UHGV virus genome: UHGV-0117802
DNA from: a virus
Direction: 5' to 3' (one strand)
DNA length: 11,216 nt
The translations under genes and the position numbers were made by a program. Below are positions 1-9,977 of this stretch, one piece after another (the stretch's first letter is position 1; each line of letters starts with the position of its first letter). Below the pieces are notes generated by a model. It ran no database searches, was not told the DNA's origin, and worked only from the letters and a program-made list of their open reading frames with translations.

Positions 1-159
1 ATGGGGATTATGCCTAATAATGTTGGAGGGTTTGGGGATGTGGAGAAGGCCAGCCGGGTATTTGTTCGGAATGAACTGATGCCACTTCAGAAGAAGTTAC
101 AAGATCTCAACTATTGGATCAATGAAGAAGCAATAACTTTCGAACACTATAAACTATAA
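1..159 (+). CDS. 3' end of a truncated CDS (52 codons, ...ITFEHYKL*); possibly the portal gene C-terminus by synteny
   Basis: Frame 1 is open from the window edge to TAA at 157-159. It is convergent with the 211..1608 gene. In P2/186 the gene ending next to cos is the portal gene, but 52 residues are not enough to confirm identity; an open frame of this length has a non-trivial chance probability. Confidence 0.3.
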   Translation: MGIMPNNVGGFGDVEKASRVFVRNELMPLQKKLQDLNYWINEEAITFEHYKL

Positions 160-182
160 TTTAAAAATCATTACCTATGAAA

Positions 183-207
183 AAAGGTGGAGACAACCTC
201 CACCTTT
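183..207 (-). terminator. Hairpin between convergent genes; intrinsic terminator for the 211..1608 gene
   Basis: Perfect 10-bp inverted repeat AAAGGTGGAG (183-192) / CTCCACCTTT (198-207) with a 5-nt loop. On the minus strand the stem runs into a T6 tract, starting 4 nt after the stop of the 465-aa gene. It may also serve the plus-strand gene ending at 159. Confidence 0.45.
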
Positions 208-210
208 AAC

Positions 211-1608
211 TTAAGCTTTAATATATTTAAATTTGAAAGGATTCGCGTTAGGATCTAATGGTTTTATTACGCCCTCCTCCCTTAACTTTTGCAATGCCTT
301 TTTAACCTTTTGAAGGTCATCTTCGCCACTTAATTGTCTAACCAACTTATTTGTGAGCTGTCCCGTTGGATTTTCTTTAAAATAATTAATAATCACATCC
401 TCAATTGAGGCTATTGTTTGATGCTTAACTATTACAACAAAATTATTGCCCCTTTCTTCAAATACCGGGGCTACCAACCCGGCCTTACGCAATTCATTTT
501 TTGCAGTATCAAGCCCCTCACCAATATCATGGTTCACTGGATTGGGAAGTTTATGCAACAAACGCACTAAATTTGGATTACGAGAAAACCGCTCTTCATA
601 TAAATTATTAATAGTCATGTATCCAGGCAATCTGCCTGGACTTTGAACTTCAATCCGGTTGTCATAAACTTTTACGTGCACATCATCCTTTTGGCTGTAA
701 TCTCTATGAATAACAGCATTAACTAATATTTCCTTCAATGCTTCTGCAGGATAGCTAAGTTTTACTAGATTTTCGCCGTCTTTGAATGATGCTCCATCAA
801 CATATTCTTTTACTTTTGCTATTGTATTTAAAATAACCACTTCAAGTGGCCCCTCAATCGTTACAGGATCTTCCTGTAATTGTTCACGTTTGTACTCTGC
901 TTCAGTTGTTCTAAGCCGATATACTTTTACAGCACATCGAGTATCTAAACATCCTTGAGGCTCTTCATCAAATAGTAAAACACAGCCTACATTCGGGACA
1001 AATTCACCATCTTTCTTAGTTAACAGTCGTTGTTTTTTTAAAAAAACTCTCGGTGACTGAGTCGTTCCTATTCTACGTAAATAATCAGAATAATATTCAC
1101 TTTCAAGAATATCTTCTACTTCAACTATATCCACTGCTTTTTTTTCATAAGGTTCTGCGCCTTTAGAATAGGAAAGCTGAGTAATTCGCTCACCTTTTAT
1201 TTTTAATTTTTGCGCGTTAGCTCTTATAAAGCAATCGCCAGAGGCCGTGTAATGAACCTTGGGGCTTTTTGGTATATCCACATGTAAAATCAATCCATTG
1301 GAAGGTGTTCTTAAATATTCCACCTCAACATTCTCAACAGCTGGATTAGTATTTTCCAATAAGGTCGAAATAATAGCATTCGCTTCCTCTGGCTCATTGA
1401 AACCAGATATACGCTCTCTCCCCGAAGCTGCATCCTCTATGCCAATATAAATATTACCGCCATCAGCATTTGCAAATGCTACAAAAGTTTCTTGTAATTT
1501 ATTAGGCGCTATTTGCTTACTTTTAAAATCATTGAAATGATCTTCAGTAGTGTTTAACAACGCCTTAATTTCCTGCGCTGATATATCAATTACTTCATAC
1601 ATCTTCAT
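211..1608 (-). CDS. Schlafen/AlbA_2-like N-terminal domain + HATPase_c_4-like C-terminal domain protein (465 aa), function unknown; AT-rich cargo
   Basis: ATG at 1608 with AAGGA RBS. N-terminal motif ETFVAFANADGGNIYIGIED matches the AlbA_2/Schlafen (divergent AAA) core signature AFAN-x-GG-x-IGV-D. C-terminal EILVNAVIHRDY matches the HATPase_c_4 signature. Base composition is visibly more AT-rich than the phage backbone. Confidence 0.6.
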   Translation of the reverse strand: MKMYEVIDISAQEIKALLNTTEDHFNDFKSKQIAPNKLQETFVAFANADGGNIYIGIEDAASGRERISGFNEPEEANAIISTLLENTNPAVENVEVEYLRTPSNGLILHVDIPKSPKVHYTASGDCFIRANAQKLKIKGERITQLSYSKGAEPYEKKAVDIVEVEDILESEYYSDYLRRIGTTQSPRVFLKKQRLLTKKDGEFVPNVGCVLLFDEEPQGCLDTRCAVKVYRLRTTEAEYKREQLQEDPVTIEGPLEVVILNTIAKVKEYVDGASFKDGENLVKLSYPAEALKEILVNAVIHRDYSQKDDVHVKVYDNRIEVQSPGRLPGYMTINNLYEERFSRNPNLVRLLHKLPNPVNHDIGEGLDTAKNELRKAGLVAPVFEERGNNFVVIVKHQTIASIEDVIINYFKENPTGQLTNKLVRQLSGEDDLQKVKKALQKLREEGVIKPLDPNANPFKFKYIKA

Positions 1609-1689
1609 TTTCCTTTAATATGTAGCTTGCTAAATTTACCATTTTTAATACTTTTATCAAGATGATGGTATAGATTACTCATCCGCGCG

Positions 1690-1708
1690 CTCGTATCCCC
1701 GCCACGCC
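1690..1708 (-). other. Putative cos (cohesive-end) site
   Basis: Minus strand reads GGCGTGGCGGGGATACGAG. The first 13 nt match the 19-nt GC-rich cohesive end of P2/186 as I recall it (P2 GGCGAGGCGGGGAAAGCAC). Its position between the portal side and the tum/A side is as expected. From memory, not searched. Confidence 0.4.
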
Positions 1709-1730
1709 TGCCCGCTTTATGTAGTGGTTT

Positions 1731-1832
1731 TCATGCAGGTGCATAATCTACGCAAAAGCCCGCCAGTTCTGGCGGGCCTTAGCAAAAACGATCCTCAAAC
1801 GATCATGCAATCTCATGCAGCATAGACATGCA
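1731..1832. repeat. Iterated CATGCA motifs next to the putative cos
   Basis: CATGCA occurs at 1732, 1804, 1814 and 1827. The 8-mer TCATGCAG is repeated at 1731-1738 and 1813-1820. ATGCA-GG-TGCAT inverted repeat at 1733-1744. Confidence 0.5.
1754..1777 (-). terminator. GC-rich hairpin with T-run on the minus strand
   Basis: Stem GCCCGCCA (1758-1765) / TGGCGGGC (1770-1777), loop GTTC. On the minus strand it is followed by TTTT (plus 1754-1757 AAAA). It would insulate the 465-aa cargo gene from leftward read-through. Confidence 0.35.
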
Positions 1833-2050
1833 CAGACGAGTAAAGCGAATCGGACTTTACGCAAGGTGAACTCCTCAGCGGGCATAATCAGTATGTCGGA
1901 AGATCTCTAAAAATGAATAATTCGGTTAACAGGTATGCTTACAAAAGCATATATTTGATTAAAAATCATGTAAGGGGGAGGATCTCAAACTGAATCGCCA
2001 CGGGTTTTACAAACTTCGATAGTCTCTCTAACGTTTCGGCTGAGGTCAAA

Positions 2051-2476
2051 ATGAAAAGCTTTTACGTATTAATTTTAATTCTGGTTGCAAGCTTTGTTAG
2101 CGTCCCAGTTCAGGCGGTAACAGCTAAAAACTATGAGAAAGGAACTAAAGCTCAACAGAAATCAATATCTTACCTTTCATGTGCATTCTATGGCAGTAGC
2201 ACACAATTAGATCCTAGCTACACGGAGCAAGTACCTACAGCCGATATCAAGATATTACAGAAAGCAGCTTACCACGCTTACAACGATGCGCTCTCATACT
2301 TTGGCTATGAGGAACCAGATCACGAACAACGCATAATTGATTATGCTGAATTTGTGGCGTCGCAAGAAGCTGTGTTATGGGATAAGCCGGGAATGAATGG
2401 AAAGCAGGTAACACTAATTGCTCGTTCTCTCTACAATGAGAGTAACTGTAACTTGTTACTGGACTCAATTAAGTAG
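2051..2476 (+). CDS. Small secreted protein of unknown function (141 aa) with N-terminal signal peptide
   Basis: ATG at 2051 with GAGG RBS 5 nt upstream. N-terminus MKSFYVLILILVASFVSVPVQA has a positively charged n-region, hydrophobic core and AxA-type cleavage context. It is on the opposite strand to all neighbouring phage genes. No recognisable enzyme motif. Confidence 0.55.
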   Translation: MKSFYVLILILVASFVSVPVQAVTAKNYEKGTKAQQKSISYLSCAFYGSSTQLDPSYTEQVPTADIKILQKAAYHAYNDALSYFGYEEPDHEQRIIDYAEFVASQEAVLWDKPGMNGKQVTLIARSLYNESNCNLLLDSIK

Positions 2477-2635
2477 GAAAAAGATGGTATTTTGCCCGTA
2501 GTTTCAACCTTAATCTCCAAACCTGTCGCAGAACGGGCGTTCACTCATCAAATAAACGCCACACCTAACGCCTCACTGTACTCGTTGTTCAACCTTGCTG
2601 ACGCCAGAAGCAATTTCAGACGCCAGCAACGTTTC

Positions 2636-3220: not shown

Positions 3221-5593
3221 TTAATACAGGTTCCGCCACTTATCATCTTCCTTCAGACGCTGGTTCCGATAGAAGATACGCAGGCCTGCTCCTGACGGAA
3301 TACTGCCGCCGCGAAGGAGCAAATCGACTTCTTTCTCGCTGCCATCAAATCCCCTGGACTTCAGTTCATAGACGAGCTGCTGTCGCTGATGGTCTGTAAT
3401 TCGCTGTTTGTAGTCTTTACGCCGTTTCGGTTTCACCTGGCGTAACCTTGCAGCCAGTTCCCGGCGCTCTTTTTTGCTCATACTGTGCAGGTAATCGTGC
3501 AACTCCTTGTCATTCATACGGGTAATATCCGTTCTGGAGTCCCCATCAGCTGATTTGTCTTTCCCTTGTTGGTTCAAATTTTCAGCAAGGGGACAGTTAT
3601 TGCCACGAGTCCAAGGGGCGCAAGCGCCCTGGTCGGCTGCCGCCTCCTGAACATCAACGGCCTTACGAACCATTTTCCACTTCACGGCATGAGTGCAGAT
3701 CTTGCCCTCTGCAATAGGTGACCAGATGCCATAAATACGAATGCCGTGATCGCCATAGGCGGTCGGCTCTTCGTTGATTTCATAAGCGGTTCTGATGAGG
3801 TGATATTTGCGGGGAACCAGTACGCCGCCCTGCTTCATGATGTAGGTGGCAAAACAACCAGCATCAGCAGCAGCCAGGATGGCATCAAGGCGCGGGTTAT
3901 CCAGTACCGGCGCACCTGCTTTTTTGTCCCCCTGTTGCCTTGCCGCCTGACCAGCCAGCAATCGCAGTTCACGGTAAGCCTGACGCCCCGGAATGCCAAA
4001 GAAGCGGAATTGCTGAACACGATGCAGAGACGCCCAGGCATTAACGTATTCAGCATTATCACGCAGGGATTTCCCCGTTTCCTTGCTGATCTCGCCAGCC
4101 AGACCACGCCCGTCAATGTTCTTACTGATGTATTTCGCGATGTAGCTTGTTGGCGTACCTTTGCGCGGGTTAATCAACTCAGACTTAAAGCGCGGCCCAG
4201 TGTTATTGCCCAGTTCCTCACGGTCTTCACGGATGGCAAACTTACGCAGTAATGCAGTGATGGCGCGGCGGTCTTTTTTGCGCATAAAACACAACAGGTG
4301 CCAGTGAACTGTACCGTCATGATGCGGCTCAGCCACCCGCACGCCATACCACCGCAATCCGGCTTTGTGCATCGCCTTACGAAATGCAGCAAACATGCCG
4401 ACTAGATAATCACTGCTTTGTCTTACCGTCGCATTTGTCCAAGTTGGGTTGGGCCTGCCATTATTTAGCGTGGAATGGAAACGTGACGGACAGGTGATGG
4501 TGTAGAAAACGGCGCAGTCACCGCGCATTTCCGCGATAAGCTCCAGGCCTTTAACACAGGCCATCATCTCATTGCGGCGATGCGCAGGGTTGCTGCTGCT
4601 GGCGTTTACCACATCCTCCATGTCCAGCGTGTCGCCGTCTTCGTTCACCAGTTCATGAGAACGAAAAAACTCCAGCGACTTACGGCGCTGCTCACGTTTA
4701 TGCATCACGGCTTCATAGCTGACATAGGGAGATGCTTTTTTGCTGACCAGGCAGACAGCACGCAACTGCTCTTCCCGCCATTCGCAACGCATCTTCCATA
4801 ATTTCCGGTACCACCAGTCAGCGCACAACATACGCGCCAGCGAACCCGGAATGAGTTCATAGGGCACGGGTTTACGGCGGTTTCTTTTCCGGCGGAGTTG
4901 CTCAAACGCAGGCGGGATGACATCCAGACGCAGGGTTTCCGCTGCCACCTTTTCCCATGTCTTGCGGATTTCTTCTGGCTTAACGTCATCGGTGACATAC
5001 AAATCGCCACAAGCTGCATCAAGGCACATGCTCATATGCGCAGCTACCAGGGTGGACAGGCGTTTCACCTGATCCTGACTCATTTCAGGCAGGATCAGCA
5101 GGCCGTCCAGCCCTTCATGGCTTGCCATAAAGCGAAAAGAAGTGGATAGCTGACAGTCGCGTACATGCTCCAGCCGTTCCAGACATGGCTTAATCGTCTC
5201 ACGCAAATAGCGGGAATAAGCCTTTGGCCTGCCCAGGCTGCTGAAGTATTCAATACGTTGCATCAGTGGCTTGCTGATATGGGAAGGCTGGGCATTGACG
5301 TCCGCCAGAATGACCATATCTGGATTAAAACGCTGCTGCTCATGCGCCAGCTTTGCCCGACTAATGAGCTTATCCTGCTCCATTTCGCGCTGGACAGGAT
5401 CACGGGATTCATTAAAGAAATAACGCTCCCAGACCTGATCACTCAGTGCCTCGCGGCGCAGCTGTTCCTGCTCGTTATCGGCAGCGTACAGAGCGATCAG
5501 GTTTGAAAGCGCAGAAACTGAAGATTGCTCTTCTGTCTCTACGTAAGGATTGATTGCTTTTTTCTCAGCATTCCAGGAATAGCTGTAGTTCAT
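3221..5593 (-). CDS. A: Replication initiation protein A (P2 gpA / 186 A family rolling-circle HUH endonuclease), about 790 aa
   Basis: HUH motif in [10 protein letters not shown] and the two-tyrosine motif YIAKYISK, typical of P2 A / phiX174 A type Rep proteins. Size and position in the early operon fit. The track start at 5644 is TTG; ATG at 5593 overlaps the upstream stop as TAATG and has a GGAG upstream. Confidence 0.85.
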
Positions 5594-6423
5594 TACGCAA
5601 TCTCCAGTTCGAGCTGTGAAGGCTGCAAACCATTCGACAGCCAATCAGAAACTGAAGGTGGGCGAACAGCTTCAATTGCACCTTTTAAAATTGCGCAACG
5701 GTTTTTCAGAATGACAGCTTTCAGCTCCTTTTCCGTCAGATTGCGCGAATACTCAGCCTCCTGAATAGCCCGCGTCAGCTCAGGATATTTGCTATTAAAT
5801 TTGGGGACATTGCAGGCAAGATTTGTACTGTCGGCAGTCGCCAGTGGGTAATTTCCCAACACACGACCGTCAAGCATGCGCAAACCATGAACAGCTGTTT
5901 TGAAATTGTGTCGGCAATAAATTGCTTCAAAAGCGTCCTGCATACGACGATGCCAGTGCGCAGTTCTGATAGCCGCATATTCACCAGACGATCCAAAGCA
6001 GACACGAGGCCATTCACGACATAGCTCGATAAGCCGATCGATTGACTCGTGCAGATGCCAGACGGGAGTTGCCTTCCCGTAGAACATTTTCGGAACTTCG
6101 TTTATCAGGGCATCATTGTCACGTTCACCTCCGTCCACAACATCAGGAATGACAAAAAAAGCGACCTTAGGATGGTGGTAATAGTTCAGGAGCCATTTAT
6201 AAAAATCACTCCAGTTAATTTTTAGCCCACGCACCCATGCAGAAAATGCGCCGTTATCAATGCCGACGACCTGAGCGTGCTGAATGGACGCCGCAATCTG
6301 ATCTGGTCGTACATAGGAGACGAAAGCGCCAGCTCCGCTCACCGCAATACGATGAACGTCGCCAGCACTTCCCCAGACAGGCGTCCCATGGAAATGATGA
6401 ATTCCGTGGTGCATTTCTTTCAC
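5593..6423 (-). CDS. Unknown 276-aa protein translationally coupled between Dam and gene A; weak TGT/DpdA-like hints only
   Basis: GTG at 6423 overlaps the Dam stop (GTGA) with a GGGGTG RBS 5 nt upstream; ATG at 6414 is an alternative start. The stop overlaps the A start. His-rich N-terminus (HHGIHHFH). IDNGAF and [10 protein letters not shown] loosely resemble the DSGGF and hydrophobic-D motifs of tRNA-guanine transglycosylase-fold enzymes. No zinc-site CxCxxC. Confidence 0.55.
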
Positions 6424-9785: not shown

Positions 9786-9977
9786 ATGCTTGGTAAGGTA
9801 TTTTTTGTGGTTTTATCATGCTCTTTGTTATTAAACCCACTAACTACCTATGCTAAAAATTATCCTTGTTCTGGGAAAAAGGGAGGTGTCTCTCACTGTA
9901 CCTCCGATGGAAAGTTCGTTTGCAATGATGGAACTATTAGTAAATCAAAAAAAATCTGTACTAAAAACTCGCGATAA
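9786..9977 (+). CDS. Small secreted Cys-rich protein (63 aa) between cI and int
   Basis: Strong GGGAGG RBS 5 nt upstream of ATG. Signal-peptide-like N-terminus [23 protein letters not shown]. Mature part has 5 Cys and is Lys-rich. AT-rich codon usage. Confidence 0.5.

What the first reader, a model, noticed from the sequence alone, without database searches (positions are those of the whole stretch)
211..1608. AT-rich cargo gene beside cos encoding a Schlafen/AlbA_2 + HATPase_c_4 protein: candidate single-gene anti-phage system
The 465-aa ORF carries two signatures I recognise by eye: AFANADGGNIYIGIED (AlbA_2/Schlafen core) near the N-terminus and LVNAVIHRDY (HATPase_c_4) near the C-terminus. 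Its composition is clearly more AT-rich than the surrounding phage genes, which points to horizontal acquisition. It sits between the gene fragment at the left edge and the putative cos site, bracketed by hairpins at 183-207 and 1754-1777, with its own RBS. Cos-proximal regions of P2-family prophages are known hotspots for defence cargo (old, tin and others). The biochemical role of this domain architecture in bacteria is not established.
Basis: partly seen in the sequence, partly recalled or inferred. Interest (0 to 1): 0.75.

Follow-up and report, generated by a model that had tools for sequence, protein, structure and literature searches.

The report
Prophage-borne Schlafen–ATPase candidate defence gene
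A 186-like E. coli prophage carries, in its known defence-gene hotspot next to the DNA-packaging (cos) site, a rare single-gene insert encoding a bacterial Schlafen RNase fused to an ATPase and a DNA-binding domain; it is a credible but untested anti-phage gene of a family that has already been described.

Summary
A minus-strand ORF (stop 211; true start most likely ATG 1602, 463 aa, not 1608) encodes SLFN_AlbA_2 (E 3e-18), HATPase_c_4 (E 3e-17) and a C-terminal winged helix. The AF2 model (pLDDT 90) matches SLFN11/5/SAMD9 nucleases, GHKL kinases and the uncharacterised 3LMM.

The RNase motif E20-x4-D25-x-K27 and the GHKL residues E291/N295/DxGxG are conserved, and dN/dS is about 0.05.

The gene has 36% GC against about 50-56% for the backbone. 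It lies in a swappable module (about 112-1683) between the portal gene and cos, with its own conserved promoter and terminator. Only 8 of 5,426 complete E. coli genomes carry it. Sister prophages carry TIR, DUF4145, DUF4062 or S1-peptidase genes in the same slot.

It is not new. This slot is the published P2 gpA-gpQ hotspot, and Rousset 2022 Table S5A lists this exact protein (WP_001471283). The architecture is the commonest prokaryotic Schlafen class ("pSlfn-HisKinase", "Schlatpase"). In SLFN-pAgo the same module tetramerises on ATP and cleaves tRNA.

The stand-alone form has no demonstrated defence phenotype; HisKinase fusions tested in 2026 gave none. Verdict: a sound candidate and a new member of a known kind, of moderate interest.

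The parts
1..159 (+). 3' end of the phage portal gene (gpQ), last 52 codons. The last roughly 16-22 codons (from about 93-112) co-vary with the cargo.
   Evidence: PGAP annotates a 'phage portal protein' ending here in the identical E. coli CPww7 record. Homology to prophages with other cargo stops at window 93-111.
112..1683 (.). Swappable single-gene cargo module (slot A, portal-to-cos), 35% GC.
   Evidence: The right boundary is sharp at 1684 in every comparison. The left boundary lies in the portal 3' tail.
177..207 (-). Intrinsic terminator of the cargo gene: a 10-bp GC-rich stem (183-207) followed by UUUUUU on the minus strand.
   Evidence: Fold energy -15.9 to -16.7 kcal/mol, z -3.5 and -6.0.
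211..1602 (-). CDS of the stand-alone Schlafen-GHKL ('Schlatpase')-winged-helix protein, 463 aa, identical to WP_001471283. The alternative upstream ATG is at 1608.
1198..1545 (-). Schlafen/AlbA_2 RNase domain (residues 20-135 in 463-aa numbering), with E20-x4-D25-x-K27, VAFAN (N45 invariant) and D57.
430..756 (-). GHKL (Bergerat-fold) ATPase domain (residues about 283-391), with N-box E291/N295, HRDY 299-302 and G1 box D359-x-G361-x-G363.
214..423 (-). C-terminal winged-helix (wHTH) domain (residues about 394-463).
1611..1615 (-). Shine-Dalgarno AAGGA, 8 nt upstream of ATG 1602.
   Evidence: Read directly from the sequence. It is conserved in the Enterobacter and Citrobacter orthologous loci.
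1633..1660 (-). Cargo promoter candidate: -35 TTGATA, 16-nt spacer, extended -10 TGgTAAATT.
   Evidence: Consensus scan scores 9 of 12 plus the TG. CTTG of the -35 and TG.TAAATT are invariant in 7 orthologous loci, including Dickeya, where the phage context is gone.
1684..1833 (.). Conserved cos block of the phage backbone. The presumed 19-nt cohesive-end sequence GGCGTGGCGGGGATACGAG reads 1708 to 1690 on the minus strand.
   Evidence: Window 1684-1736 is 100% identical to the annotated 'putative cos site' of phage Cartapus. About 1,280 E. coli genomes share the block. The exact cohesive-end position rests on my recollection of the P2/186 cos sequences.
1754..1780 (-). Backbone hairpin followed by UUUUG on the minus strand. 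It probably terminates leftward early-operon transcription before cos and insulates the cargo promoter.
   Evidence: Fold energy -25.1 kcal/mol, z -4.2. It lies inside the conserved block. The insulating function is inferred.

Best explanation
The gene is a self-contained, horizontally acquired cargo module in the portal-cos slot of the P2/186 gpA-gpQ defence hotspot. It encodes a stand-alone prokaryotic Schlafen protein of the 'Schlatpase' type: a single-lobe Schlafen RNase, a GHKL ATPase and a C-terminal winged helix. The proposed mechanism has four steps. (1) The gene is expressed in the lysogen from its own promoter. [quoted passage not shown] (3) An infection cue releases this activity; the most likely cue is a nucleic-acid feature read by the winged helix. 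(4) The enzyme then cleaves tRNA in a metal-dependent way, stopping translation and aborting the competing phage's infection, which protects the lysogen population and the resident prophage. Shown here: the gene's integrity, its module boundaries and regulatory signals, the domain folds, intact catalytic residues in both enzymatic domains, strong purifying selection, and hotspot location with rare, variable occupancy. Inferred from published relatives: tRNase activity, ATP-gated oligomerisation and an abortive-infection outcome. Purely hypothetical: the trigger and the sensor role of the winged helix.
Against: No phenotype exists for this protein or for any stand-alone Schlatpase. Perez Taboada et al. 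tested HisKinase-type pSlfn fusions from Enterobacterales under native promoters in MG1655 and report protection only for the DUF262 and Ig-like fusions. One of the tested proteins could even be a close orthologue of this one, since Enterobacter, Pantoea and Raoultella orthologues are 91-92% identical, but I could not check this. Outside P2-like prophages the orthologues are lone genes among housekeeping genes; only about 1 of 11 or more such loci has a restriction system nearby. No domain evolves fast, and orthologues reach 70% identity across phyla, which is unlike sensors that track fast-evolving phage proteins. Two of the 9 E. coli copies carry frameshifts, although these may be homopolymer sequencing errors. 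PADLOC (2023) does not call it a system.
Confidence: 0.55

Rival explanations
1. It is a phage-serving or host-physiology RNase rather than an immune gene. In this reading the prophage-encoded Schlafen-ATPase trims tRNA or rRNA in response to a cellular state (stress, DNA damage, nucleotide level). Its role would be to modulate growth, lysogeny or induction, or to interfere specifically with P4-type satellites or sibling P2-like phages that share cos.
For: The whole protein is highly conserved with no fast-evolving sensor. Orthologues occur as lone chromosomal genes away from defence islands. T-phage-type panels gave negative results for HisKinase fusions. The promoter lies only about 30 bp from cos. 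Rousset et al. show that hotspot cargo can act between P2-like relatives.
Against: Every Schlafen protein characterised so far in bacteria, and the same supradomain in SLFN-pAgo, acts in antiviral defence. The slot is otherwise filled with defence-type cargo. Rarity (0.15% of E. coli genomes) and patchy horizontal spread are typical of defence genes.
Confidence: 0.2
2. It is an ATP-dependent DNA-binding regulator, as legacy annotations suggest ('transcriptional regulator', 'putative DNA binding domain-containing protein', 'RecG-like helicase'). In this reading the winged helix binds DNA, the GHKL ATPase acts as a switch, and the AlbA_2 domain serves as a nucleic-acid-binding module rather than a catalytic one.
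For: The protein has a C-terminal winged helix. Source annotations and PHROG 12156 name it 'DNA helicase'. The structural-genomics relatives 3LMM and 2KYY remain uncharacterised.
Against: No helicase motor domain is present, so the RecG name is an artefact of the Pfam family title. The nuclease triad is conserved across homologues down to 24% identity, which is not expected for a pure binding module. No conserved target operon or partner gene accompanies the gene in any context.
Confidence: 0.12
3. It is a decaying or neutral hitchhiker, a low-GC insert with no current function in E. coli.
For: Two of the 9 E. coli copies are frameshifted at the same T8 run. The gene is very rare.
Against: dN/dS is about 0.05 with dS 0.8-1.8. 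The promoter is conserved. The identical 463-aa protein occurs on 291 contigs. An intact ORF survives where the surrounding prophage has decayed. The frameshifts are +1 and -1 in a homopolymer, a typical long-read assembly error.
Confidence: 0.05

Closest known systems
Prokaryotic Schlafen defence proteins (pSlfn; RorSlfn5 and EcoSlfn7; Perez Taboada et al., Nat Microbiol 2026, PMC13056530)
   Same: It has the same PF04326 nuclease domain with the E-x4-(E/D)-x-K motif. It is a single polypeptide that fuses the effector to accessory domains. It falls in their most frequent class, pSlfn-HisKinase (34%) or pSlfn-HisKinase-HTH (19%).
   Different: The validated members carry Ig-like or DUF262 partners, not GHKL+wHTH. 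The HisKinase fusions they tested showed no defence. The trigger of this class is unknown.
'Schlatpase' supradomain of SLFN-pAgo (RzAgo; Kuzmenko et al., bioRxiv 2026, 10.64898/2026.05.29.728809)
   Same: It has SLFN (PF04326) followed by the GHKL ATPase (PF13749) in the same order and spacing, with equivalent catalytic residues (RzAgo D32, E314 and N318 against E20/D25, E291 and N295 here). A PADLOC pAgo model aligns over residues 36-397. That paper notes that most Schlatpases are small stand-alone proteins with or without a C-terminal HTH.
   Different: There is no PAZ/MID/PIWI core, so there is no guide-RNA sensor or filament 'safety catch'. How a stand-alone Schlatpase is kept off and then switched on is unknown.
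P2 gpA-gpQ cos-proximal defence hotspot (old, tin and others; Rousset et al., Cell Host Microbe 2022, PMC9122126; also PMC13586616)
   Same: The location is the same and occupancy is variable. The exact arrangement 'hypothetical + HATPase_c_4/AlbA_2 + hypothetical + DinI' with WP_001471283 is listed in their Table S5A.
   Different: The entry is listed but was never curated, discussed or tested. Here the hotspot resolves into two slots on either side of cos, and this gene is in the portal-side slot.
DIP2311 of Corynebacterium diphtheriae (PDB 3LMM) and 2KYY
   Different: Sequence identity is only about 16%. It is a structural-genomics entry with no assigned function.
Mammalian SLFN11/13/14 and the SAMD9 tRNase domains
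   Same: The nuclease C-lobe fold and the acidic active-site motif are shared. These are antiviral tRNases controlled by an ATPase domain.
   Different: The mammalian proteins are bilobed within one chain and use an SF1 helicase/ATPase. Here the domain has a single lobe and the ATPase is GHKL, so the bilobed site would have to form by oligomerisation.

Membership tests
Prokaryotic Schlafen (pSlfn) nucleases | Full-length PF04326 domain (more than 100 aa) | tested here: met
   Residues 22-137 match profile positions 1-117 of 118, 66.9 bits against a cut-off of 25.3.
Prokaryotic Schlafen (pSlfn) nucleases | Catalytic E-x4-(E/D)-x-K motif and SAFAN box | tested here: met
   E20-x4-D25-x-K27 is conserved in 39, 39 and 37 of 41 sequences. 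The box reads VAFAN with N45 invariant. D57 is D or E in 39 of 41.
Prokaryotic Schlafen (pSlfn) nucleases | Fold of the SLFN nuclease C-lobe | tested here: met
Prokaryotic Schlafen (pSlfn) nucleases | tRNA cleavage and phage-defence phenotype | not testable with these tools
   This needs wet-lab work. Published tests of HisKinase-class fusions were negative.
Schlatpase supradomain (SLFN + GHKL) | PF04326 followed by PF13749 in one chain | tested here: met
   the same layout is seen in all 120 close homologues.
Schlatpase supradomain (SLFN + GHKL) | Intact Bergerat ATP-binding residues (N-box E and N; G1 box DxGxG) | tested here: met
   E291, N295, H299, R300 and Y302 are invariant. D359, G361 and G363 are at least 90% conserved.
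Schlatpase supradomain (SLFN + GHKL) | ATP-driven dimerisation or tetramerisation | not testable with these tools
   Only a monomer model could be built.
P2/186 gpA-gpQ hotspot cargo | Located between gpA and gpQ next to cos, with different genes at the same place in related prophages | tested here: met
   The locus is listed in Rousset Table S5A.
SLFN-pAgo | PAZ/MID/PIWI Argonaute core, length about 1,071-1,187 aa | tested here: not met
   The protein is 463 aa with no Argonaute domains. The PADLOC hit covers only model positions 55-437 of 1121.
Sensor histidine kinase | DHp/HisKA phospho-acceptor domain next to the CA domain | tested here: not met
   There is no HisKA match at any threshold. 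Residues 138-282 have no Pfam hit. Structural matches cover only the CA domain.
RecG / SF2 DNA helicase (legacy name) | RecA-like helicase motor domains (DEAD/Helicase_C) | tested here: not met
   None was found. The name derives from the Pfam title of PF13749.
Z-alpha (Z-DNA/Z-RNA binding) domain | Winged helix with the signature Asn/Tyr on helix 3 and Trp in the wing (residues recalled from knowledge of ADAR1 Z-alpha) | tested here: inconclusive

The most novel reading that the evidence does not exclude
The stand-alone Schlatpase-winged-helix protein is an autonomous sensor-effector. Its trigger would be a conserved nucleic-acid feature or cell state (for example free DNA ends, ssDNA or cos-type ends of incoming P2/P4-type genomes, or an ATP/nucleotide signal read by the GHKL domain) rather than a fast-evolving phage protein. 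This would explain three observations: its unusual cross-phylum conservation, the lack of a variable sensor domain, and the negative results on standard T-phage panels. It would also assign a function to the commonest bacterial Schlafen architecture (53% of 5,930 pSlfn proteins in one survey, 58.6% of 103,533 SLFN-domain proteins in another).
Probability: 0.15. Interest if true: 0.65.

Novelty: new member of a known kind. Interest (0 to 1): 0.35.

Why it matters
Stand-alone Schlafen-GHKL proteins are the commonest prokaryotic Schlafen architecture: 53% of 5,930 proteins in one survey and 58.6% of 103,533 in another. No member has a demonstrated phenotype, trigger or regulation mechanism. This copy sits in E. 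coli, in a well-understood prophage hotspot, as a compact 1.6-kb module with its own promoter and terminator. It has natural isogenic comparators, namely sister prophages with other cargo. That makes it a convenient native system for asking what switches a Schlatpase on. The discovery itself, however, has been anticipated at the level of the hotspot, the family and the locus.

Tried and rejected
Searches that found nothing:
- NCBIfam gave no family.
- Rfam and tRNA scans of the window found nothing.
- Isolated phage genomes (INPHARED) and PLSDB plasmids hold only distant homologues, 27-39% identical. The close family is therefore seen only in prophages and chromosomes.
- A search for papers on the Mycobacterium phage Squirty homologue found nothing.

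Checks that could not be completed:
- The supplementary tables of Perez Taboada et al., needed to see whether a close orthologue was among the tested HisKinase fusions, are not held.

Weak or negative context evidence:
- A PADLOC scan of 77 neighbouring ORFs in seven non-prophage loci gave only sparse type I and type IV restriction hits.
- The ten largest neighbours gave none.
- tblastn placed the type I R-subunit fragments in a single locus, L017.
- 'Defence-island' support outside the P2 hotspot is therefore weak.

Readings rejected:
- Histidine kinase: no DHp domain.
- RecG helicase: no motor domain.
- SLFN-pAgo membership: no Argonaute core.
- A specific Z-alpha assignment for the winged helix: the match is at fold level only.

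Other points:
- The sigma-70 scan alone is not above chance for the region (6 sites found against 7.7 expected). The promoter call rests on cross-species conservation.
- The hairpin at 1754-1777 was rejected as a cargo boundary, because it lies in the conserved cos block.

Full report
OBSERVATION.
- Pfam places SLFN_AlbA_2 at residues 22-137 (E 3.1e-18) and HATPase_c_4 at residues 309-393 (E 3.4e-17). Both are far above the curated cut-offs.
- The gene has 36.1% GC (GC3 25.9%). The replication gene gpA has 52.7% (GC3 57%) and the structural genes 56%.
- Both hairpins fold significantly better than shuffled sequence.
These are explained in the next section.

LOCUS ANATOMY. The window is 100% identical to a 186-like prophage of E. 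coli CPww7 integrated next to rcdA/ybjJ.
- In window orientation the order is: portal 3' end (1-159, +), cargo gene (-), cos, a 141-aa secreted-looking ORF, DinI-like/Tum, gpA, Dam, cII, apl, cI, int.
- Window 1684-1736 is 100% identical to the annotated 'putative cos site' at the genome end of phage Cartapus. Cartapus carries a DUF4145 gene where this gene sits.
- The presumed cohesive-end sequence GGCGTGGCGGGGATACGAG reads 1708 to 1690. That assignment rests on my recollection of the P2/186 cos sequences.
- All orthologues begin MYE/MYQ, and PGAP starts at 1602. The AAGGA Shine-Dalgarno is 8 nt from ATG 1602 but only 2 nt from ATG 1608. The product is therefore most likely 463 aa, identical to WP_001471283.
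- The 183-207 hairpin is followed by U6 on the minus strand and is the cargo gene's own terminator.
- The 1754-1777 hairpin lies beyond cos, in the conserved block. It more probably stops leftward early-operon transcription.

A SWAPPABLE MODULE IN A KNOWN HOTSPOT. About 1,280 of 5,426 complete E. coli genomes share the cos block 1684-1833, but only 8 carry this gene. All copies are at least 99.7% identical, and one genome has two copies.
- In sister prophages the same slot holds a DUF4145 protein, a DUF4062 protein, an S1 peptidase plus a hypothetical protein, or a TIR-domain protein. All are on the same strand as this gene.
- Homology to those prophages ends sharply at 1684 on the cos side and inside the last 16-22 codons of the portal gene on the other side. 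The exchangeable unit is therefore about 112-1683.
- A second, independent variable slot lies between the cos block and DinI (1834-2625).
- A promoter-like site (TTGATA, 16-nt spacer, TGgTAAATT, at 1660-1633) lies inside the module. On its own it is not above chance.
- However, the CTTG of the -35 and TG.TAAATT are invariant across seven orthologous loci. These include Dickeya, where no phage sequence remains. The promoter therefore travels with the gene.
- This is the cos-proximal gpA-gpQ hotspot described by Rousset et al. 2022 and revisited in 2026.
- Their Table S5A lists exactly 'hypothetical + HATPase_c_4/AlbA_2 + hypothetical + DinI = WP_001154434 + WP_001471283 + WP_000834899 + WP_001217575', the four proteins of this window. 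The entry was not curated or tested.

THE PROTEIN. An AF2 model built on 41 homologues is confident (pLDDT 90.3, pTM 0.79).
- For the C-terminus they find winged helices: ArsR, MarR, Rpa2-WH, PerR and Z-alpha.
- Across homologues down to 24% identity the Schlafen motif E20-x4-D25-x-K27, N45 of the VAFAN box and D57 are conserved in 37-41 of 41 sequences.
- The GHKL residues E291, N295, H299, R300 and Y302 are invariant, and D359-x-G-x-G363 is nearly so.
- Residues 138-282 have no Pfam match.
- There is no HisKA/DHp domain, no helicase motor and no Argonaute core. The names 'histidine kinase', 'RecG helicase' and pAgo therefore do not apply.

EVOLUTION AND CONTEXT.
- The identical protein is on 291 contigs. 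Orthologues 90-92% identical occur in Enterobacter, Citrobacter, Raoultella, Cronobacter and Pantoea. Orthologues about 70% identical occur as far away as Thiobacillus, Photobacterium and Chryseobacterium.
- In Enterobacter and Citrobacter the gene occupies the same portal-cos slot of intact 186-like prophages.
- In Rahnella an intact copy sits between portal fragments and a cos remnant of a decayed, IS-invaded prophage. This suggests retention by the host.
- Elsewhere it is a lone gene among housekeeping genes with no conserved partner. Only one sampled locus has type I restriction fragments nearby.
- dN/dS against three orthologues is 0.045-0.065, with the GHKL domain at 0.01-0.02 and no fast-evolving domain.
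- The closest multidomain relatives (37-39% identity over the whole module) fuse it to an HsdR-like ResIII/SWI2_SNF2 + EcoEI_R_C motor.
- Isolated phage genomes and plasmids hold only distant relatives.

MECHANISM, FROM PUBLISHED RELATIVES.
- Perez Taboada et al. (2026) showed that prokaryotic Schlafens are anti-phage effectors. Once a fused sensor detects a phage cue, they cleave tRNA through the E-x4-(E/D)-x-K site in a Mn-dependent manner.
- In that study HisKinase (34%) and HisKinase-HTH (19%) fusions are the commonest classes. However, the HisKinase fusions tested gave no protection on their panel.
- Kuzmenko et al. (2026 preprint) named SLFN+PF13749 the 'Schlatpase' supradomain, present in 58.6% of 103,533 prokaryotic SLFN proteins. 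Most of these are small and stand-alone, with or without a C-terminal HTH.
[quoted passage not shown] This pairs single-lobe SLFN domains into a mammalian-like bilobed tRNase.
- PADLOC aligns residues 36-397 of this protein to that part of a pAgo model.
- I therefore propose an ATP-gated, oligomerisation-dependent tRNase that causes abortive infection, with the winged helix as the candidate sensor or autoinhibitor.
- Only the architecture and residue conservation are shown here. The activity, the trigger and the phenotype are inferred.

RIVALS. Three alternatives were considered: a phage-serving or physiological RNase, a DNA-binding ATP switch as in the legacy annotation, and a decaying hitchhiker.
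- The first keeps appreciable probability. The reasons are the uniform conservation, the lone chromosomal orthologues and the published negative tests.
- The other two are disfavoured by the conserved nuclease triad, by dN/dS and by the conserved promoter.
- The two frameshifted E. coli copies are +1 and -1 changes in the same T8 run (1138-1145). They may be assembly errors.

NOVELTY AND VERDICT. The hotspot, the protein family, its likely biochemistry and even this exact locus are already in the literature. What is missing is any functional evidence for the stand-alone form.
- The finding is a correct and well-reasoned call of a candidate defence gene, and a new member of a known kind.
- Its value is as a tractable native E. 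coli test case for the commonest, still phenotype-less, bacterial Schlafen architecture.
- Interest is 0.35.

Noticed in passing
window 5593-6423 (-): A 276-aa ORF lies between the Dam methylase and gpA. PGAP calls it hypothetical and it has no Pfam match. It matches PHROG 887 'queuine tRNA-ribosyltransferase' at 2.4e-96. It may be a DpdA/TGT-like 7-deazaguanine DNA-modification (anti-restriction) gene in the early operon. The same 276-aa ORF is present in the Enterobacter ludwigii prophage.
   Followed up: partly
window 1834-2625 (ORF 2051-2476, +): A second variable slot lies on the other side of cos. It holds a 141-aa ORF with a signal-peptide-like N-terminus (PHROG 7437, function unknown; no Pfam match) and a 10-of-12 promoter-like site at 1926-1955. 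The ORF is present or absent among sister prophages independently of the portal-side cargo.
   Followed up: partly
window 1138-1145: A T8 (coding-strand A8) run lies inside the cargo gene. One E. coli genome has a -1 change and another a +1 change exactly here, splitting the gene into 'AlbA family' and 'ATP-binding' ORFs. These are either homopolymer assembly errors or recurrent slippage inactivation.
   Followed up: partly
proteins P0137, P0132, P0141, P0136; locus L018 8001-11563: The closest multidomain relatives (37-39% identity across the whole Schlafen-GHKL module) carry it N-terminal to an HsdR-like motor (ResIII/SWI2_SNF2 + EcoEI_R_C), in the position where type I restriction R subunits have their nuclease. 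In L018 a 36%-identical stand-alone gene is followed by a separate HsdR-like ORF.
   Followed up: partly
L009 and L022 (Rahnella), about 7700-11300: An intact orthologue (83-84% identical) is retained between portal pseudogene fragments and a cos remnant of a decayed P2-like prophage, next to an IS transposase. This pattern suggests the host has kept the cargo gene.
   Followed up: partly
window 9786-9977 (+): A 63-aa Cys-rich ORF with a signal-peptide-like start lies in an AT-rich stretch between cI and int (PHROG 6000, function unknown). This interval is another minor cargo site reported for P2-like phages.
   Followed up: no
window 93-159 (+): The last 16-22 codons of the portal gene differ with the cargo type (portal length 341, 344 or 346 aa in sister prophages). 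Cargo exchange therefore recombines inside the portal 3' end.
   Followed up: partly
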